Shown here piece after piece: positions 3,855-26,155 of a stretch of DNA of 64,000 nt. A program made the position numbers and the translations under genes. The stretch comes from Patescibacteria group bacterium (GTDB lineage Bacteria; Patescibacteriota; Patescibacteriia; UBA10025; JAHIVO01). Position 1 is the first letter of the stretch; each line of letters begins with the position of its first letter. The notes under the pieces are model-generated. The model was not told where the DNA came from and made no database searches. It saw only the letters and a program-made list of their open reading frames with translations. The stretch is taken from positions 193,699 to 257,698 of the forward strand of contig JAQULM010000001.1 of NCBI GenBank assembly GCA_028718605.1, in the 5' to 3' direction.

Positions 3855-4214
3855 TTAACGTGCCAATCGTAACAATAATTCGATGACGCCTGTTATATTA
3901 TGATAAACATCTCTATTGGTAATTCTAATGATTCGAATACCGAGCGATTCAATAAACTTCTGGCGTTGGTTATCATATACGATCGTTTGTTTTGATAGAA
4001 AATGTGACGGCCCATCAACCTCGATGCCAAGCCTAAGCCGGGCACAATAAAAATCAATCACATACCCGCTAACACTATACTGCCGGCGGAACTTACAACC
4101 AGCCAACTGCTTGCCTTTCAAATAACGCCACAGCACAATCTCAGCGCGTGGTGCTGAATTCCTCAAGCCCTGGCGTCGGCGCTTCATCGAATGTGTGTTA
4201 TAGATGACTGTCAT
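3855..4214 (-). CDS. DUF559 family endonuclease-domain protein (Vsr/very-short-patch-repair-like fold)
   Basis: The protein shows the DUF559 signature ...EIVLWRYLKGKQLAGCKFRRQYSVSGYVIDFYCARLRLGIEVDGPSHF...IRIIRITNRDV. An RBS aaaggggagg lies upstream of the ATG. Confidence 0.75.
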   Translation of the reverse strand: MTVIYNTHSMKRRRQGLRNSAPRAEIVLWRYLKGKQLAGCKFRRQYSVSGYVIDFYCARLRLGIEVDGPSHFLSKQTIVYDNQRQKFIESLGIRIIRITNRDVYHNITGVIELLLRLAR

Positions 4215-4265
4215 AGTGCCGGTAGCCTTACCTCCCCTTTAAACTAACTTGGTGATTCCTCCGCC

Positions 4266-4440
4266 GTCTGTTCTCTTCCCCTCCTCATTTCGAGGAGGGG
4301 AAAACGTGACAAGTATGCTATGCCACAGCGTTCGTAGAGAGGTGGTGGAGTTATCCTCCCCTCCTTAATTGAGGAGGGGAAAAAGCGATACATGAGCCTT
4401 ACCTGAACGTCAGGAGGGGGGTGGTTGAGCCATGCCCCCC
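4266..4440. repeat. Locus A of a dispersed palindromic repeat family: two or more units of a CCCCTCCTC-loop-GAGGAGGGG hairpin followed by the conserved block GTTCGTAGAGRGGTGGTKG
   Basis: An 11-bp stem hairpin sits at 4266-4292 and a second hairpin at 4347-4370. The block cgttcgtagagaggtggtggag is at 4320-4340, and degenerate gaggggggtggttgagcc at 4403-4420. The same family recurs at 8941-9170. Confidence 0.7.
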
Positions 4441-4603
4441 AACGCATACAACAACTCCCCACGTAGGTTATGGGGAGGTTACTGCTTCCACTTTATCATT
4501 ACCTATTACAATAATCAATATCCCCTAAACAAGCATTGACACCCCCAATTGCGTGTGATAAGGTGGCGTATTCAATATCCACAGCCCCTCAACACTTCAT
4601 ATT

Positions 4604-5541: not shown

Positions 5542-8500
5542 TTGCCTCCAGCAACCATCATTGCCTCAAAAATCGTCTGCGACAGCGAATCCGATCTGCC
5601 AAACTGGGGCGGAGCTCAAGGTGACCAATCCATCAATGCAAATACGGCAACAGACTTTGTCAATGCCAGTAATGGGAAATGCCATATTAATCTTGATTGG
5701 ACATTCCAGTATAAAACTGGCGATGTAGCCAATCCTGATGATAACTCCGGCGTTGCGAGTGACTGGTCTACTCCCTTCTCATCATCGGTGCCAGTTGATG
5801 TAAGCGCTTCCAATCTTATTAAAGTGCGTGAAATCTGGAACGATCAATATATCCCATTTACAGGTGACAACGACAACAAGAATGTAAGTGCCGAGTTTTA
5901 CTGCGCAAATGATAACTACAAATACGACAATTTCGACTATGTCACTAGCGCGCAGCCAGGCCAGACCTACTACTGCGTCGCGTTTAATGCACTCGCAGCT
6001 ATTTGCGGCGATGGTGAACTAGACCCGGCAACCGAACAATGCGACAATGGACCGGATAATACTGACGATGCATGCACAGCCGAATACGGCGATACATGTG
6101 ATTATTGCACAGCCTCATGCCAATCAGTCACAATCACTGGTCCGCATTGTGGTGACGGCATAGTCAATGGCGAAGAACAATGCGATGACGATAATTCAAT
6201 CAATAATGACGCCTGCACTAATCAATGCACATTCCCTACCGGCTCAATCACCGGTACGAAATACGAAGACATTAACGCGAGTGGTGATCGCGATACCATC
6301 GGAGACACGAGCAATACCGAACCAGGCCTCTCTGGCTGGAATATATATCTCTACCAAGGAGAAGGCCCTTCAATCGCTAATACAACCACGGATGCCAAGG
6401 GCGATTATGAATTCCTTGGTTTGACTCCGGGCGAGTACAGGGTTTGCGAAGACAACAAGCCAGATTGGCACCACACAGATCCGGGTATGAATGACAACCC
6501 GTGTAAAACCGTGACAGTAACAGCTGGCCAGGCGGTCACAGCGAATTTCGGTAACTTCCATGACGCTTGGATAGAAGGTTACAAATACGAAGATGCCAAT
6601 GGCAACGGGCAGTACGACGATGGTGAGCAATACATCAATGGTTGGCCAATTCGGTTATATAGATTAGAACAAAACAAGAAAGGTGGCACGTCCTGGGACA
6701 ATACCGCTGGCCAGGGAACTGGCTCGGTCTGGCCGGAAACCGGCAGGTATGCCTGGACTGATGTGCCTGGAACGTATTATGTTTGTGAGGTTGCCAAGCA
6801 CGACTTCGACGGTTCCGACTGGATCCAGACACAGCCGGCTGCTGACCAGGGCGTCGCGAACCAATCCGGCATGGAAGATGAAGCGTTTCGCTGTTATGAA
6901 GTCGTCATCGATGAATCCGGGGAGCAGAATACGCACCTCGATTTCGGTAATCAACGGATCGTCCCAACATACGACGTCCACGGCTACAAGTGGAACGACA
7001 TTGACGAGGATGGGTACTTTGATTGCGAAAATACCTTCTCCATTCAAACACTCACAAACGTGAACACGCTCCCCCCAGTGGCGCAATTATGCGAGCCGAA
7101 ACTCTGCGATTGGACCATCCAGCTCAAGCAGAATGGCGAAGTCCTCGATGAGACTACAACCTCGTGCGAAGACAGCCGCGATTACGGCTGGTACTGGTTC
7201 GAGGACCTTCCGGCCGGAACATACGAAATTTGTGAAGTCCAGCAGGAAGGCTGGGACCAAACGTACCCCGAGAACTGCCATAACGTGACGTTGCCGCTGG
7301 CCCAGGAAACGCTACGGGCAACTGTCATTTCTGACAATTTCGTCGAAGACGCCCCTGAGTTTGACTTTGGCAACCACCAAATCCCACCGGTTCCCGTTGT
7401 CGACATCACCAAGACCGTCACGGTAAATGGCGAGGAAACAGCCACGGCGCATGAGGGCGACTCGCTCGTCTATACGATTACTGTTTCCAATACGGGCAAC
7501 GCGACCGCGTATGACTTGAGAATCAGTGACGACTTGCCGGCAAACGTTACATTCGGAGAGGATGCGTTCAATCCCGCGCCTGGAGTCAATGACGGCACGA
7601 CTGCGGTTTGGGATCCGATCGACCTGCCCGCTGGCAATGATTATGTCATCACGATCACCGGCACCGTGAACGCAGGCCTCGAATATGGCAGCGCTGATAG
7701 CCTTGAGGTCGTCAATACGGCGACCGTCGAGCAATTCGAATTCAACCAAGAGGTTTCTTTCTGGCAAAAACTGCTCGGCGTGAAAGTCGCACATGCGCAA
7801 GCAGCAGCAGCGCCGATTAACTTTATCCACCAGGCAGCGGTTGCCGCGGTGAATGTCCTGAAGCCTGTTCCCGCTATCTGCGGCAATGGCACGATAGAGC
7901 AAGCAGCTGGCGAGGAATGCGATGACGGTGCGCTGAACAATAAGCCATGCACGGCAGGAGTCGGCCAGACCTGTACGTACTGCTCGTCAACCTGCACCAC
8001 ATTCACCGTGACTGGCGAAGAACCAACACCGGTGCTCGCTGTCCTGAAGACCGTTGACGATTCATTAACGAACCCCGGCCAAGTTGTTACCTATACAGTC
8101 ACGATCAGCAATTCCGGCAATGCGGCGGCGAAAGACGTGAAGCTCGTTGACACCCTGCCAGCAGGGCTCACCTTCGCTGACAAAAAAGGCAAAACAACCG
8201 GCGACACCGAGAAAACCTGGACTTGGAAAACGCTCGCCGCTGGCGATGACGTGACGGTCACCTACGATGCAGTAATCGACTCAAATACCGGCGCAGATGT
8301 ATATGATAACCTCGCAACAGTTACCGCAAAGAATTTCGACGGTTCAGTGACTGCCAAAGCGTCGACCGAGGTCCGCATCCCTGTCGTGCTCGGGGACGAG
8401 ACGCCTGAACTCGAAATTACGAAGACAGCAAAGCAGACATACGTTAATCCCGGCGGCACCGTTACCTACACGGTTACCGTGAAGAACGTTGGTGATGCGC

Positions 8501-8865
8501 CGGCAATGAACGCGGTGCTGACCGACACGCTTCCTGCCGGATTCGTCTTCGCTGACACGGGTAAATCGACAAAGACATGGAAATTGGGTGATATCGTGCC
8601 GGATGAGGTAGTAACCAAGACCTACACGGTCAAGGTTGATGCTTCAACAATCGCGGGTAAGTACACGAACTTAGCCACGGTGAAAGCTGATGATACGCCG
8701 GTTATAACGGCGAAGGCTGCTGTCGAGGTTCGGACGCCGAAAGTATTAGGTGCTGAAGACGAGCCGACACAGCTGCCAGTCACTGGCGCAGGCATTCTCG
8801 GGTTAGTTGCTGCTGCAGCCGTCATTATTGGCACGGGCGTCATCTCCAAGAAACGGACGCGGTAA
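5542..8865 (+). CDS. Large LPXTG-type surface protein body: SdrD-B/Cna-B repeats, two Myxococcus-type Cys-rich repeats (CGDG...EQCDDGN), three DUF11 repeats, and a C-terminal QLPVTGAG sorting signal with TM helix and KKRTR tail. It has no signal peptide of its own
   Basis: The motifs AICGDGELDPATEQCDNG and AICGNGTIEQAAGEECDDG are present. DUF11 units read EITKTAKQTYVNPGGTVTYTVTVKNVGDAP. The ORF-track start is a TTG directly after the in-frame TAG, and no RBS was found. Confidence 0.8.
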   Translation: MPPATIIASKIVCDSESDLPNWGGAQGDQSINANTATDFVNASNGKCHINLDWTFQYKTGDVANPDDNSGVASDWSTPFSSSVPVDVSASNLIKVREIWNDQYIPFTGDNDNKNVSAEFYCANDNYKYDNFDYVTSAQPGQTYYCVAFNALAAICGDGELDPATEQCDNGPDNTDDACTAEYGDTCDYCTASCQSVTITGPHCGDGIVNGEEQCDDDNSINNDACTNQCTFPTGSITGTKYEDINASGDRDTIGDTSNTEPGLSGWNIYLYQGEGPSIANTTTDAKGDYEFLGLTPGEYRVCEDNKPDWHHTDPGMNDNPCKTVTVTAGQAVTANFGNFHDAWIEGYKYEDANGNGQYDDGEQYINGWPIRLYRLEQNKKGGTSWDNTAGQGTGSVWPETGRYAWTDVPGTYYVCEVAKHDFDGSDWIQTQPAADQGVANQSGMEDEAFRCYEVVIDESGEQNTHLDFGNQRIVPTYDVHGYKWNDIDEDGYFDCENTFSIQTLTNVNTLPPVAQLCEPKLCDWTIQLKQNGEVLDETTTSCEDSRDYGWYWFEDLPAGTYEICEVQQEGWDQTYPENCHNVTLPLAQETLRATVISDNFVEDAPEFDFGNHQIPPVPVVDITKTVTVNGEETATAHEGDSLVYTITVSNTGNATAYDLRISDDLPANVTFGEDAFNPAPGVNDGTTAVWDPIDLPAGNDYVITITGTVNAGLEYGSADSLEVVNTATVEQFEFNQEVSFWQKLLGVKVAHAQAAAAPINFIHQAAVAAVNVLKPVPAICGNGTIEQAAGEECDDGALNNKPCTAGVGQTCTYCSSTCTTFTVTGEEPTPVLAVLKTVDDSLTNPGQVVTYTVTISNSGNAAAKDVKLVDTLPAGLTFADKKGKTTGDTEKTWTWKTLAAGDDVTVTYDAVIDSNTGADVYDNLATVTAKNFDGSVTAKASTEVRIPVVLGDETPELEITKTAKQTYVNPGGTVTYTVTVKNVGDAPAMNAVLTDTLPAGFVFADTGKSTKTWKLGDIVPDEVVTKTYTVKVDASTIAGKYTNLATVKADDTPVITAKAAVEVRTPKVLGAEDEPTQLPVTGAGILGLVAAAAVIIGTGVISKKRTR

Positions 8866-8892
8866 AACATTTCACAGGCATTCAAGATAGAA

Positions 8893-8925
8893 AAGCGGGC
8901 TCTACCAAGGGCCTGCTTTTCATTT
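8893..8925 (+). terminator. Putative terminator hairpin after the surface-protein gene
   Basis: The sequence agcgggctctaccaagggcctgct forms a stem with two G-U pairs and is followed by tttcattt. Confidence 0.35.
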
Positions 8926-8940
8926 ATTTGTTGTGCATGT

Positions 8941-9170
8941 ATCCTTCCCCTCCTCTCTGAGGAGGGGAAAACGTTATACGCACGCCGTTCCATAAAAGTT
9001 CGTAGAGGGGTGGTTGGTCCTCCCCCCCTCCTTTCCAAGGAGGGGAAATGCAATAAGCAAATTAATCCGCATTGTTTCTAGAGGGGTGGTTGGCTCTCTT
9101 CCCATCCTCTCTGAGGAGGGAAAAGGCACTCCATCTGCATTGCCGCGGTGTTTGTAGAGGGGAGGTGATG
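8941..9170. repeat. Locus B of the palindromic repeat family: three tandem units of ~78 nt, each a CCCCTCCTC-loop-GAGGAGGGG hairpin followed by GTTCGTAGAGGGGTGGTTGG
   Basis: Hairpins lie at 8945-8969, 9025-9045 and 9101-9121, the last with a bulge. Conserved blocks lie at 8997-9018, 9075-9094 and 9150-9168. Confidence 0.75.
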
Positions 9171-9202
9171 CCCTTTGAAGCGTCCTCGCGTAGGAGGAAC
9201 CC

Positions 9203-9231
9203 TTGACAAACCTTTGCGGGTATGGTAGTAT
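9203..9231 (+). promoter_or_regulatory. Sigma70-like promoter TTGACA-N17-TAGTAT upstream of the CAP-domain gene
   Basis: The sequence is ccttgacaaacctttgcgggtatggtagtatg. Confidence 0.5.
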
Positions 9232-9263: not shown

Positions 9264-10958
9264 ATGTGGTATAATAATTACAGTCACTTTTCCATAAAGA
9301 AATATATGGACAAAGCAGCCCCGAAAAAAAAGGAACTCCACGAGCATATTATCCACCACTGCAAGAAGCTGCCTCATCATGCATGGCACTTTTTGGTACC
9401 GCACAAGGGAAATAACCACAAGCCCCACGCATTACGGCCAACCGCCCTTCGGCTGTACGTTTTTTCGATTATTGCCGTAAAAGTCTTCGTGGGCAGTTTC
9501 TTGTTCCTCTCGTACCCGTCAGCGGGTGAATTTGCTGCAATTGCACAAGCAGACATCTTGAGCCTTACGAATGCCTCGCGAGCAGAAGCAGGCATCGCCC
9601 CCCTGTCGCTGAACGCTGCGCTGAATAAAGCGGCACAGCTGAAAGCCCAGCATATGATCGCCAATAACTACTTTGCGCATACCGCGCCGGACGGTACAAA
9701 ACCGTGGTCATTTCTGAAACAGGCTGGATACAGCTACACCGCTGCGGGCGAAAATCTCGCCATGGACTTCACCGAGGCCGCGACCGTACACACCGCGTTC
9801 ATGAACAGCGAGTCGCACAAGAAAAACATCATGAATTCAAAATATACGCAGATGGGCATCGCAGTCTTGGATGGCGAGCTCGATGGCGTTTCAACAACTA
9901 TTCTTGTCGAGTTTTTCGGTGCCCCATATGAAGCTGCTGCTGCGCCAACCACCCCAACACCAACGCCGACGCCGACACCCACGCCAACCACTCCAACACC
10001 GACACCAACGCCAACACCCACTCCAACGCCGACACCAACGCCAACGACTCCAACGCCGACACCAACGCCAACGACTCCAACGCCGACACCAACGCCAATA
10101 CCCACTCCAGTACCCCAGTATTACCGGGCTGAGCTGACTGACCAGAGTGCTACAGAGCTTGGAATCAAGACGCTCGAACAAATCAGCTATTGGGTTGAAT
10201 TCAAGAATACCGGCACGATTACGTGGAATAATTCTGGCGAATATTTCGTTGCCCTGAATGTCAATAATCCGATCGGCAGGCACAGTGCGTTCGAAGATGA
10301 AACGTGGGTTGAATACTACCGCCCAGCCATACTCAAACAGCCACGCGTTGCCCCGGGAGAAATCGGGCGGTTTGAATTCACTTTGAAGTCACCCGACGAA
10401 GCTGGCGCATACGAAGAATCCTTCGGCATCGTCGCGGAGAATAAAGCATGGATCGATGGCGGCACCATCGAGCTCCCGATCGTCGTCGTCGCGCCGCCTG
10501 AACAGACATCAGAAATGGAAGTCAACGTTATACCGACCACGACAACTCCCCAAACCAACGCGAACACCAATACCGCTGCGCCGACGAATACAAACCAATC
10601 CCCAACGAATACAAACACCACGCCCGCAGCTGTTACCGAGACACCGCTTGTCAACGATAATACCAATGCACAAATAGTAACCCCCGAACAGCGTGCAGTC
10701 ATCGTCGCTGGCGCAGAGCAAAAAGGCGAGGAAGCGAAGGGCTTTATCGGTAAAATTCTCGAATACTCGAAGCGGTTCTATCTGGTGTTTGTCATCTTCC
10801 TTGTTGTTGCCCTGCTCATCAACATCCTGGTCGAGATCAGAATACAGCAGCCGCACATGATTATTCAGACAATTGTCGTCATTATCATCGCCGTAACTGC
10901 CATTCTTCTGAATCCCCATTTCCTCGAAAAAGTACCGCTCGCGCTCAGGATTGCCTAG
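9264..10958 (+). CDS. Membrane-anchored CAP/SCP/PR-1 domain protein (YkwD-like) with a long Pro-Thr linker, a beta-sandwich domain of unknown function, an N/T-rich linker and a C-terminal TM segment
   Basis: The CAP motifs ...LNKAAQLKAQHMIANNYFAHTAPDGTKPWSFLKQAGY...GENLA...HTAFMNSESHKKNIMNSKYTQMGIAV are present. The PT linker reads PTTPTPTPTPTP.... The ORF-track start at 9222 falls inside the predicted -10 element, so the ATG at 9264 (or 9306) is preferred. Confidence 0.8.
   Translation: MWYNNYSHFSIKKYMDKAAPKKKELHEHIIHHCKKLPHHAWHFLVPHKGNNHKPHALRPTALRLYVFSIIAVKVFVGSFLFLSYPSAGEFAAIAQADILSLTNASRAEAGIAPLSLNAALNKAAQLKAQHMIANNYFAHTAPDGTKPWSFLKQAGYSYTAAGENLAMDFTEAATVHTAFMNSESHKKNIMNSKYTQMGIAVLDGELDGVSTTILVEFFGAPYEAAAAPTTPTPTPTPTPTPTTPTPTPTPTPTPTPTPTPTTPTPTPTPTTPTPTPTPIPTPVPQYYRAELTDQSATELGIKTLEQISYWVEFKNTGTITWNNSGEYFVALNVNNPIGRHSAFEDETWVEYYRPAILKQPRVAPGEIGRFEFTLKSPDEAGAYEESFGIVAENKAWIDGGTIELPIVVVAPPEQTSEMEVNVIPTTTTPQTNANTNTAAPTNTNQSPTNTNTTPAAVTETPLVNDNTNAQIVTPEQRAVIVAGAEQKGEEAKGFIGKILEYSKRFYLVFVIFLVVALLINILVEIRIQQPHMIIQTIVVIIIAVTAILLNPHFLEKVPLALRIA
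9940..10110 (+). repeat. Imperfect tandem hexanucleotide repeat (ccaacg/ccgaca) encoding the PT linker
   Basis: The DNA reads ccaacaccaacgccgacgccgacacccacgccaacc.... The ORF-track minus-strand GVGVGV ORF is an artefact of this repeat. Confidence 0.8.
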
Positions 10959-25836: not shown

Positions 25837-25978
25837 AACAGTCGTCTGAACAAACCCCTTTATTTCAAGCGCGTTTCCTGGTACTATACTACTATTGAAC
25901 CTTGGTTGGCCATTAACAATGCACGGGGTAACCACGCGACACGAGCGTACGAGCGATGCCCCGGTTCGAATCTTTTTC

Positions 25979-26014
25979 CGGGGATTAGCGCAGTTGGCTA
26001 GCGCGCACGCTTCG
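25979..26014 (+). other. Partial copy (36 nt) of the tRNA-Pro 5' half, running from the acceptor stem to the middle of the anticodon
   Basis: It is identical to nt 1-36 of the tRNA at 26079 and is followed by an unrelated CCCCGCA...TGCGGGG hairpin. Confidence 0.8.
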
Positions 26015-26078
26015 CCCCGCAACCTCTCGCTTTGTTCGGATGCGGGGTAAAGGTGCAGACGCGCTAGAGCTGGCTTGC

Positions 26079-26155
26079 CGGGGATTAGCGCAGTTGGCTA
26101 GCGCGCACGCTTCGGGTGCGTGAGGTCGCGAGTTCGAGTCTCGCATCCCCGACCA
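26079..26155 (+). tRNA. tRNA-Pro (anticodon CGG), CCA encoded
   Basis: Manual fold gives acceptor CGGGGAT/ATCCCCG, D-stem GCGC/GCGC, anticodon stem CACGC/GCGTG with loop TTCGGGT, and T-arm GCGAG-TTCGAGT-CTCGC. The discriminator is A, followed by CCA. Confidence 0.85.

What the first reader, a model, noticed from the sequence alone, without database searches (positions are those of the whole stretch)
8941..9170. Locus B of the same repeat family: three tandem ~78-nt units in front of the CAP-domain gene
There are three consecutive units (hairpins at 8945-8969, 9025-9045 and 9101-9121, each followed by the GTTCGTAGAGGGGTGGTTGG box) with a regular 76-80 nt spacing. They sit between the terminator of the LPXTG gene and the promoter of the CAP-domain gene. 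The third hairpin has decayed (an A insertion in the stem), which points to duplication followed by drift. If transcribed, the array could act as an insulator or terminator stack, as a protein-binding site array, or as a small structured RNA.
Basis: seen in the sequence. Interest (0 to 1): 0.55.

Follow-up and report, generated by a model that had tools for sequence, protein, structure and literature searches.

The report
Orphan BoxC-like nuclease-associated repeat array
The three tandem ~78-nt units are real. They are a stranded, partly decayed copy of a repeat (C-rich/G-rich hairpin plus a mirror-image G-rich box) that normally lies just upstream of small DUF559 endonuclease genes, and that resembles the enigmatic E. 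coli BoxC "triplex-motif" repeats.

Summary
Units B1-B3 (8938-9170) and A1-A2 (4268-4428) are the only members in the window. A profile built only from other genomes recovers exactly these five (E 8e-15 to 2e-7).

Each unit is a CCCCTCCT/AGGAGGGG hairpin, then ~35 nt, then a GGGGTGGT box that mirrors the purine arm. That is the sequence logic of BoxC/PIT/TMECO intrastrand-triplex repeats, but with a much longer second loop.

In six other Patescibacteria loci the units lie between a sigma70-like promoter with a 5' hairpin and the start codon of a small nuclease gene (DUF559; once GIY-YIG). Locus A is such a leader.

Locus B has no nuclease gene, no clear promoter and a decayed third unit. In a syntenic relative the same site holds a GIY-YIG gene in the predicted orientation. 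B is therefore most likely an orphan or relic copy, not a regulator of the CAP gene.

Triplex-type motifs lie within 150 nt of 10 of 13 DUF559 genes picked by protein similarity alone, across five phyla (P~2e-13). I found no paper reporting this link.

The parts
8938..9017 (+). Unit B1: hairpin TTCCCCTCCTC-tct-GAGGAGGGGAA (8944-8970), A-run, about 30-nt loop, G-box GTTCGTAGAGGGGTGGTTGG (8998-9017)
   Evidence: External HMM E 7.6e-15. Meets the triplex-type rule with 0 mismatches and a 37-nt second loop.
9018..9093 (+). Unit B2: hairpin CCCCTCCT-ttcca-AGGAGGGG (9025-9045), G-box GTTTCTAGAGGGGTGGTTGG (9074-9093)
   Evidence: HMM E 8.4e-9. Meets the triplex-type rule with 1 mismatch.
9094..9170 (+). 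Unit B3, decayed: stem with a bulged A (about 9098-9124) and a diverged box GTTTGTAGAGGGGAGGTGATG (9150-9170)
   Evidence: HMM E 1.7e-7. Fails the triplex-motif finder.
9183..9198 (-). Weak 5-bp hairpin TCCTC-gcgtag-GAGGA, in the position of the promoter-proximal 5' hairpin of intact leaders. It has no U-run and is probably a decayed remnant.
   Evidence: Read from the sequence and compared with 4455-4478 and with L003, L007, L136 and L137. This is an inference.
8890..8921 (+). Terminator-like hairpin of the LPXTG/DUF11 gene (5542-8865). It abuts the left end of the array, where a nuclease gene would be expected.
9203..9231 (+). Sigma70-like promoter of the CAP-domain gene (TTGACA-17-TAGTAT). 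A TTGACAAA promoter occupies the same position in the orthologous loci L146, L149 and L150.
4268..4428 (+). Locus A: units A1 (4268-4349) and A2 (4350-4428), which form the 5' leader of the DUF559 gene when read on the minus strand
   Evidence: The units are about 88-92% identical to their L004 orthologues by eye, against 76.6% for the CDS.
3855..4214 (-). 119-aa DUF559 (Vsr-like PD-(D/E)xK) endonuclease gene. Its start codon faces locus A.
   Evidence: Pfam PF04480 E 3.9e-27. Closest solved structure 3HRL.
4230..4237 (-). GGGGAGGT, the Shine-Dalgarno region of the DUF559 gene. It is also a mirror repeat of the purine arm of the last hairpin, so it forms a sense-strand triplex-type motif spanning 4231-4300.
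4455..4478 (-). Promoter-proximal hairpin CCTCCCCA..TGGGGAG followed by a U-rich tract. It marks the 5' end of the DUF559 leader.
   Evidence: The same element starts 11 nt after the -10 box in L003, L007, L136 and L137.
4490..4518 (-). Weak promoter-like site TTGATT-17-TAAAGT, 11 nt upstream of the 5' hairpin
   Evidence: Read. The spacing matches the strong promoters of L003, L007, L136 and L137. The consensus scan did not call it.

Best explanation
Locus B is an orphan, partly decayed tandem array of a Patescibacteria variant of BoxC/PIT-type repeats. Each unit has a polypyrimidine/polypurine hairpin (CCCCTCCT/AGGAGGGG), about 35 nt of loop, and a G/T box (GGGGTGGT) that is the mirror image of the purine arm.

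Intact arrays of this family (1 to 3 units) lie on the opposite strand, between a sigma70-like promoter with a 5' hairpin and U-run and the start codon of a small stand-alone nuclease gene (DUF559, once GIY-YIG). Locus A is one of these.

Locus B keeps the units in the same orientation but has lost, or never had, the nuclease ORF, the SD-proximal box and a usable promoter. It sits at an intergenic site that holds other small selfish or palindromic elements in relatives. It is therefore most likely a relic or non-autonomous copy of a nuclease cassette.

Inferred, not shown: the repeats act at the DNA level. They would be structure-prone (hairpin or triplex-type) sequences that are recognised by, or co-mobilised with, the DUF559 nuclease, and they would promote local rearrangement. 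They would not regulate the LPXTG or CAP genes.

Patescibacteria context:
- L003, L004, L136 and L137-139 have units directly upstream of DUF559 start codons. L007 has one upstream of a GIY-YIG gene.
- In sense orientation the order is always promoter (TTGACA/TTGACC-16 to 18-TAGTAT/TAGAAT/TATTAT), 11 nt, hairpin plus U-run, C-box, about 30 nt, hairpin, SD, ATG.

Orphan status of B:
- No DUF559 remnant lies near B, even at tblastn E 10.
- No minus-strand promoter is found.
- B3 fails the motif rule.

Hot spot:
- CAP-gene synteny is conserved in L146-L152.
- At the position of B, L146 carries a minus-strand GIY-YIG gene with the same kind of 5' hairpin and U-run. L149 and L150 carry a different palindromic element. 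No relative has B-type units.

Mirror-repeat logic:
- It holds for A1, A2, B1 and B2, and there are zero such motifs elsewhere in the 64 kb.
- It matches the BoxC/PIT/TMECO description (PMC4666352).

General link to DUF559:
- 10 of 13 loci chosen by protein similarity alone have such a motif within 150 nt of the gene. These come from Patescibacteria, Planctomycetota, alpha- and gamma-Proteobacteria, Deinococcota and Cyanobacteria.
- Only 7 motif sites occur in about 153 kb of control sequence; binomial P about 2e-13.
- Inverted copies often bracket the gene (L140, L153, L155, L164).
- A module truncates a DUF559 ORF in L083.
- 6 to 8 of 120 metagenomic loci chosen by the motif alone have a DUF559 start next to it.
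Against: - No closely related genome showing locus B present or absent was available, so loss of the ORF cannot be told apart from independent spread of the units.
- The DUF559 gene with its leader is syntenic in the window and L137-139, and apparently in L004. The units are more conserved than the CDS. That looks like a stably inherited, selected cis-element rather than an active mobile element.
- The second loop is 35-39 nt, far outside the 1-6 nt used to define intrastrand triplex motifs, so triplex formation is doubtful for these units.
- Two of 12 Patescibacteria boxes read GGGGCGGT, which breaks the triad rule but keeps Watson-Crick pairing with a partner C-box (L136).
- No biochemical activity is known for DUF559.
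- E. coli has 23 TMECO copies but only one lies near its DUF559 gene ycjD, about 170 nt downstream.
Confidence: 0.6

Rival explanations
1. The family is an RNA-level cis-regulator. On the nuclease mRNA the C-boxes (CCACCCCUCU, resembling the 16S 3' end) and the hairpins carry anti-SD and SD sequences. These would sequester the true SD (GGGGAGGU) and, together with the promoter-proximal hairpin and U-run, keep a potentially toxic nuclease at very low expression. Under this reading locus B is a non-functional leftover of such a leader.
For: - Promoter, 5' hairpin with U-run, units, SD and ATG occur in the same order in 6 genomes.
- In predicted folds C-rich segments pair with the SD region: in window locus A (z -4.0) and C-box with G-box in L136 (z -4.1).
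- The L136 C-box (CCGCCCC) and its SD-proximal box (GGGCGG) change together.
- The units are more conserved than the CDS between the window and L004, and one C-to-U change keeps a G-U pair only on the sense strand.
- In L033 and L083 the G-box lies 2-6 nt before the ATG.
Against: - The hairpin arms are invariant rather than covarying, so there is no structural proof.
- Weak G-U asymmetry in the variable second hairpins of metagenomic copies favours the opposite (G-box) strand, 12 against 6 G-U pairs.
- About 90% of metagenomic copies, and 22 of 23 E. coli TMECOs, are not in front of a nuclease gene.
- It does not explain copies that flank the 3' ends of DUF559 genes or that truncate the ORF.
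- No Rfam family matches.
Confidence: 0.25
2. Locus B works where it sits. It would act as an insulator, terminator back-up or protein-binding array between the LPXTG gene and the CAP promoter.
For: Its position lies between a terminator and a promoter. The spacing is a regular 76-80 nt.
Against: - No hairpin has a 3' T-run on either strand, and none is flagged as terminator-like.
- Five syntenic relatives keep the CAP promoter without any such array.
- The same units occur at locus A and in other genomes in a different, nuclease-linked context.
- Unit B3 is decaying.
Confidence: 0.07
3. It is a degenerate CRISPR-like mini-array or a set of tandem small-RNA genes, with a hairpin repeat and about 30-nt variable 'spacers'.
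For: A periodic conserved part alternates with a more variable 30-nt part.
Against: - The repeats are only about 72% identical.
- The 'spacers' are homologous between units (A1 against B1 z 9.8 after removing the hairpin).
- The 'spacers' are conserved between genomes.
- L004 units 2 and 3 are duplicated including the 'spacer'.
- No promoter or terminator brackets individual units.
- No Rfam match.
Confidence: 0.02

Closest known systems
BoxC / PIT elements / TMECO intrastrand triplex motifs (E. coli; Holder et al. 2015, PMC4666352; earlier work by Bergler and by Hoyne and Maher as cited there)
   Same: - Pyrimidine arm, short loop, complementary purine arm, then a G-rich block that mirrors the purine arm (G opposite G, T or A opposite A).
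- G/C-rich, intergenic and multi-copy.
- Found as adjacent pairs.
- Linked to locally variable regions.
- No promoter or terminator activity reported.
- 101 of the 120 metagenomic relatives found here meet the strict short-loop definition.
   Different: - The window units have a 35-39-nt second loop instead of 1-6 nt.
- The sequence differs: CCCCTCCT/AGGAGGGG/GGGGTGGT against CCCTCNCCC/GGGNGAGGG/GGGNGAGGG.
- They are direct tandem arrays with 76-80-nt period rather than single or inverted copies.
- They sit in the leader of a nuclease gene.
- The paper does not mention DUF559 or any endonuclease.
REP/BIME elements and their RAYT transposases (REPIN-RAYT systems)
   Same: Short structured intergenic repeats are dispersed in a genome. 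One protein-coding gene is characteristically flanked by them. Clusters without the gene are common.
   Different: The associated gene is a Vsr-like PD-(D/E)xK DUF559 protein, not a Y1 (IS200/IS605-type) transposase. The repeat architecture differs. Neither mobility nor an enzyme-repeat interaction has been shown.
Free-standing homing-endonuclease cassettes, such as the phage T4 seg/mob genes and I-TevI, with RBS-sequestering hairpins (from my own knowledge)
   Same: A small GIY-YIG or Vsr-like nuclease ORF has its own promoter and a structured leader carrying SD/anti-SD hairpins. Occupancy of a syntenic intergenic site varies between relatives.
   Different: No target gene or homing site is known. 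The leader is made of repeated units that also occur alone.
MITEs and other small bacterial interspersed repeats (ERIC, Correia/CREE, BOX, RUP)
   Same: Short, structured, non-coding and intergenic. A module can insert into, or truncate, an ORF (L083).
   Different: No target-site duplications or defined terminal inverted repeats could be identified for the window units.

Membership tests
BoxC / PIT / TMECO-type intrastrand triplex motif (definition used in PMC4666352) | A pyrimidine block and a complementary purine block form a hairpin with a short first loop | tested here: met
   B1 and B2 (also A1 and A2) have perfect 8-9-bp CCCCTCCT/AGGAGGGG stems with loops of 3-7 nt. B3 has a bulge.
BoxC / PIT / TMECO-type intrastrand triplex motif (definition used in PMC4666352) | A third block mirrors the purine arm (G opposite G, A or T opposite A) with at most one mismatch | tested here: met
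   Met by A1, A2, B1 and B2 and failed by B3. No other such site occurs on either strand of the 64-kb window.
BoxC / PIT / TMECO-type intrastrand triplex motif (definition used in PMC4666352) | The second loop is 1-6 nt (3 nt in TMECO) | tested here: not met
   The second loop is 35-39 nt in the window units. Metagenomic relatives do meet it.
BoxC / PIT / TMECO-type intrastrand triplex motif (definition used in PMC4666352) | TMECO consensus CCCTCNCCC-N3-6-GGGNGAGGG-N3-GGGNGAGGG | tested here: not met
   The block sequences differ.
BoxC / PIT / TMECO-type intrastrand triplex motif (definition used in PMC4666352) | The single strand physically forms a triplex (CD/NMR) | not testable with these tools
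   Needs spectroscopy or chemical probing of B1-type oligonucleotides.
REP/BIME-RAYT system | The repeats flank a Y1 (RAYT) transposase gene | tested here: not met
   The flanked gene is DUF559/PF04480. The only Y1_Tnp gene seen is unrelated, in L150.
CRISPR array | Near-identical repeats separated by unrelated spacers | tested here: not met
   Mean column identity is 72%. The 'spacers' are homologous between units and between genomes.
Intrinsic terminator (stack) | A G+C-rich stem followed by a T-run on the transcribed strand | tested here: not met
   An A-run follows on the + strand and a T-run precedes on the - strand. No unit hairpin appears in the terminator scan.
Any curated RNA family (Rfam 15) | A covariance-model match at or near the gathering score | tested here: not met
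   Nothing at gathering score in the window or in 20 related loci. Only chance-level hits at E up to 5.
MITE | Terminal inverted repeats plus a target-site duplication | tested here: inconclusive
   Metagenomic modules are bounded by ACCACCCC...GGGGTGGT, and one truncates an ORF. No duplication was recognisable and no empty site was recovered for locus B.

The most novel reading that the evidence does not exclude
DUF559 (Vsr-like) endonucleases are the cognate enzymes of BoxC/PIT/TMECO-type triplex-motif repeats throughout Bacteria, in a partnership analogous to RAYT and REP. The gene sits inside an inverted pair, or at the head of an array, of these motifs. Gene-less arrays such as locus B and the dispersed BoxC copies would be its non-autonomous products or substrates. 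This would explain both the unknown function of DUF559 and the genomic instability reported around these motifs.
Probability: 0.3. Interest if true: 0.8.

Novelty: new variant of a known kind. Interest (0 to 1): 0.55.

Why it matters
BoxC/PIT/TMECO repeats have been known in E. coli since the 1990s. They have a proven in-vitro triplex structure and a link to local genome variability, but no known function or origin. DUF559 is a very widespread endonuclease-fold family with no assigned role.

This locus led to a strong statistical link between the two across at least five phyla. That turns both open questions into one testable hypothesis: does DUF559 bind, nick or mobilise these motifs?

For genome annotation it also identifies a recurrent, recognisable leader and repeat in Patescibacteria. 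It shows that arrays like locus B should not be read as regulators of their neighbouring genes.

Tried and rejected
- **Tandem Repeats Finder.** It did not report the array because the units are too diverged.
- **Rfam.** Searches at gathering and permissive thresholds found nothing.
- **Terminator and promoter readings of the units.** Rejected.
- **Coding potential.** ORFs spanning the arrays (72 aa at 4244-4462; 143 and 51 aa across locus B) were rejected, because the unit lengths are not multiples of three and the translations only repeat the motif.
- **CRISPR-like reading.** Rejected.
- **G-quadruplex.** G-runs are 30-40 nt apart, too far for a canonical quadruplex (from the sequence).
- **Sigma54-like TGGCA in the loop region.** The spacing does not fit (by eye).
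- **First neighbour-gene clustering.** It was swamped by spurious ORFs that translate the repeat itself.
- **A stricter array regex.** It found too few arrays to be useful.
- **G-U against A-C asymmetry to pick the functional strand.** Only a weak, non-significant bias (12 against 6).
- **Literature searches.** Searches for DUF559 with repeats, GIY-YIG, Patescibacteria or intrastrand triplex found no paper linking the nuclease to the repeats. The library is not exhaustive.

Full report
**1. The observation**

The region 8938-9170 holds three head-to-tail units of 80, 76 and 77 nt. Read on the + strand, each unit has four parts:
- a hairpin with a pyrimidine 5' arm and a purine 3' arm (CCCCTCCT-loop-AGGAGGGG);
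- an A-run;
- about 30 less conserved bases;
- a G-rich box (consensus GTTCGTAGAGGGGTGGTTGG).

Two more units form locus A at 4268-4428.

The similarity is far above chance.
- The box pattern gives 6 matches against 0.94 expected, and 0 of 100 shuffles reach 6.
- Whole-unit alignments beat 1000 dinucleotide shuffles with z = 5 to 25.
- A profile HMM built only from units of other genomes recovers exactly A1, A2, B1, B2 and B3 in the 64 kb (E 7.6e-15 to 1.7e-7).

B1 is closest to A1 (83% identity). B3 is the most diverged. Its stem has a bulged A, caused by a C-to-A change plus loss of a G rather than by an insertion.

The array lies between a terminator-like hairpin (8890-8921) after the LPXTG/DUF11 gene and a sigma70-like promoter (9203-9231) of the CAP-domain gene.

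**2. Source organism and relatives**

The window is part of contig JAQTSE010000003.1 of assembly GCA_028711455.1. Sources name its proteins as from a Patescibacteria group bacterium.

A pattern scan of one genome per species found the same unit in three other Patescibacteria MAGs (L003, L004, L007). Looking up homologues of the neighbouring protein added L136 (Kerfeldbacteria) and L137-139.

**3. Context of intact copies**

Locus A abuts the start codon (4214, minus strand) of a 119-aa DUF559 gene. This is a Vsr-like endonuclease fold (PF04480, E 3.9e-27; closest solved structure 3HRL).

In L003, L004, L136 and L137-139 the units also lie directly upstream of a DUF559 start codon. In L007 they lie upstream of a GIY-YIG gene.

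Read in the sense of the nuclease gene, the order is always the same:
- a sigma70-like promoter (TTGACA/TTGACC/TTGACT, 16-18 nt, TAGTAT/TAGAAT/TATTAT);
- 11 nt;
- a hairpin CCUUCCCCA...UGGGGAAGG followed by a U-run;
- one to three copies of C-box (CCACCCCUCU), about 30 nt, UUU and the CCCCUCCU/AGGAGGGG hairpin;
- a G-rich Shine-Dalgarno region;
- the ATG.

The window has a weaker promoter-like site (TTGATT-17-TAAAGT, 4518-4490) with the same 11-nt spacing to its hairpin (4478-4455).

Between the window and L004 (79% protein identity) the CDS is 76.6% identical at the nucleotide level. By my reading of that alignment, the units are about 88-92% identical and the rest of the leader is poorly conserved. 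That argues for constraint on the units at locus A.

**4. Locus B is an orphan**

B has the units in the same orientation as A, so a nuclease gene would be expected to its left, on the minus strand. Instead the LPXTG-gene terminator abuts the first unit.
- No DUF559 remnant is detectable, even at tblastn E 10.
- No minus-strand promoter is found.
- The hairpin that should mark the 5' end is reduced to a 5-bp stem without a U-run (9183-9198).
- B3 no longer fulfils the motif rule.
- B1 is preceded by what looks like the remnant of a further G-box (GTTGTGCATG against GTGGTGGAG; family D13). This suggests the array was truncated on that side.

Orthologues of the CAP gene keep the synteny surface-protein gene, X, CAP, He_PIG, BacA, DUF212. 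Position X is where B lies in the window. What is found at X differs between relatives:
- L146 has a GIY-YIG gene on the minus strand, with a hairpin and U-run directly before its ATG.
- L149 and L150 have an unrelated palindromic element.
- L147 and L151 have sortase and response-regulator genes.
- None has B-type units.

The site is thus a hot spot for small nuclease or palindromic insertions. The B array is lineage-specific and is not a conserved part of CAP regulation.

**5. What the unit is**

Most of these share features the pattern did not demand:
- a second identical hairpin;
- an upstream ACCACCCC, the reverse complement of the box (82 of 130 matches).

Others have a variable second hairpin with compensatory changes.

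The key to the architecture came from the E. coli DUF559 gene ycjD. Its downstream region carries CCCCTCTGGGGAGAGGGTTAGGGTGAGGGG. This is a BoxC/PIT/TMECO element as defined by Holder et al. 2015 (PMC4666352): CCCTCNCCC-N3-6-GGGNGAGGG-N3-GGGNGAGGG. That paper reports that it:
- is a class II purine-motif intrastrand triplex, shown by CD and NMR;
- often occurs as inverted pairs;
- is associated with locally variable regions;
- has no promoter or terminator activity in earlier tests.

The window's box obeys the same rule. GGGGTGGT read backwards aligns with AGGAGGGG as T opposite A and G opposite G. The B3 variant GGGGAGGT gives A opposite A, which is also allowed.

A finder written for this rule (7-nt blocks, at most one mismatch in all) gives these results:
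- It detects A1, A2, B1 and B2, and nothing else on either strand of the window.
- It detects short-loop motifs in 101 of the 120 metagenomic loci, mostly as inverted pairs.

The window units differ from the defined family in their 35-39-nt second loop, their block sequences and their direct tandem arrangement. I therefore call them a variant and not a member.

According to the same paper, purine-motif triplexes do not form in RNA. If a triplex matters at all, it would be on single-stranded DNA of the G-rich (+) strand.

**6. A general link to DUF559**

Thirteen DUF559 loci were chosen by protein similarity alone. They come from Kerfeldbacteria and other Patescibacteria, Phycisphaerae, Aquipseudomonas, E. 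coli, Azospirillum, Deinococcus, Picosynechococcus, Sphingobium, Synechocystis, Neisseria and Sinorhizobium.
- Ten of the 13 carry at least one motif within 150 nt of the gene.
- Only 7 motif sites occur in about 153 kb of control sequence. Six of those form one array 230-900 nt downstream of the Neisseria gene. The seventh is a site at 8900-8965 on the edge of locus B, which the script's cut-off counted as outside it.
- Binomial P is about 2e-13.

In L140, L153, L155 and L164 inverted motifs bracket the gene with their G-rich boxes facing inward.

In L083 a module replaces the last ~20 codons of the ORF.

In the other direction, 6 to 8 of the 120 loci chosen by the motif alone have a DUF559 start next to the motif.

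L007 and L136 lie downstream of the same kind of gene (OmdA). They share the promoter, the 5' hairpin and the C-box up to the loop of the CCCCTCCT hairpin. Beyond that point they diverge into a GIY-YIG and a DUF559 gene respectively.

I found no paper that connects DUF559 with these repeats. The Holder paper mentions neither DUF559 nor any endonuclease. The searchable library is not exhaustive.

**7. Mechanism**

Shown:
- family membership;
- strand and order of elements in intact leaders;
- absence of the gene at B;
- variable occupancy of the site in relatives;
- the mirror-repeat rule;
- the statistical link to DUF559.

Inferred: B is a relic or non-autonomous copy of a nuclease cassette, and the repeats act as structure-prone DNA tied to the nuclease.

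The main rival is an RNA-level role at locus A. In that model the anti-SD-like C-boxes and the promoter-proximal hairpin with U-run throttle expression of the nuclease.
- In its favour: predicted long-range pairing with the SD region and conservation of the units.
- Against it: it cannot explain copies at the 3' ends of genes, copies that truncate ORFs, or the many gene-less copies.

The two models are not exclusive. Under both, locus B has no demonstrable function of its own. Terminator-stack, CRISPR-like and chance explanations are rejected.

**8. Verdict**

The repeat array is real and statistically solid. It is a new long-loop, tandem variant of a known but unexplained repeat kind (BoxC/PIT/TMECO). 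The particular copy flagged here is most likely an orphan. The wider result it led to, a cross-phylum association of these motifs with DUF559 endonuclease genes, is the part worth following up.

Noticed in passing
window 25975-26014 and 26075-26114: The first 40 nt of tRNA-Pro(CGG) (26079-26155) are duplicated at 98% identity, 100 nt upstream. ARAGORN and Rfam call only one tRNA. This looks like a partial tRNA duplication, of the kind left by integration at a tRNA gene.
   Followed up: partly
L146 3480-3560; L149 3775-3880; L150 about 905-990; L007 6560-6600: A second, unrelated palindromic repeat of the type GTCATT(T/G)CGA...GAGCGGAGCGA...AATGAC occupies the same LPXTG-CAP intergenic site in relatives. 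It also lies next to GIY-YIG genes, so GIY-YIG genes may have their own partner repeat.
   Followed up: no
L007 6552-6770 against L136 2780-3000: Both cassettes follow an OmdA-family gene. They share the promoter, the 5' hairpin and the C-box, and diverge exactly in the loop of the CCCCTCCT hairpin. Beyond that point one encodes GIY-YIG and the other DUF559. This suggests gene replacement or recombination at the hairpin.
   Followed up: partly
L163 (Neisseria gonorrhoeae) 2002-2696: Three copies, about 281 nt apart, of an inverted pair of triplex-type motifs lie just downstream of a DUF559 homologue. The record is labelled a plasmid but is chromosome-sized.
   Followed up: no
L161 (Pseudanabaena galeata plasmid) 1363-2624: An ORF annotated as a very long 'DUF559 domain-containing protein' is peppered with at least ten triplex-type motifs on both strands. 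The annotation probably reads through a repeat array.
   Followed up: no
L156 (E. coli K-12 ycjD) about 2480-2410 and 2365-2300, minus strand: The last ~50 nt of ycjD are duplicated downstream of the gene. A degenerate CCCTCTCCC...GAGGGGG hairpin spans the stop codon, and a full TMECO/BoxC element follows about 170 nt after the stop. This suggests a past rearrangement at the motif.
   Followed up: no
L150 4214-4678: A Y1 transposase (PF01797) gene is inserted between the He_PIG and BacA genes of a syntenic relative. This is another small mobile gene in the same neighbourhood.
   Followed up: no
window 9943-10109 and 835-1431: Coding tandem repeats. A Pro/Thr-rich linker (periods of 6 to 57 nt) lies inside the CAP-domain gene. 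270-nt repeats encoding SpaA_2-type domains lie in the first LPXTG/DUF11 gene.
   Followed up: no
L153 about 2230-2590: By eye, the sequence downstream of the Phycisphaerae DUF559 cassette looks like an RNase P RNA gene (GGAGGAAAGTCCG...). This was not tested with Rfam.
   Followed up: no
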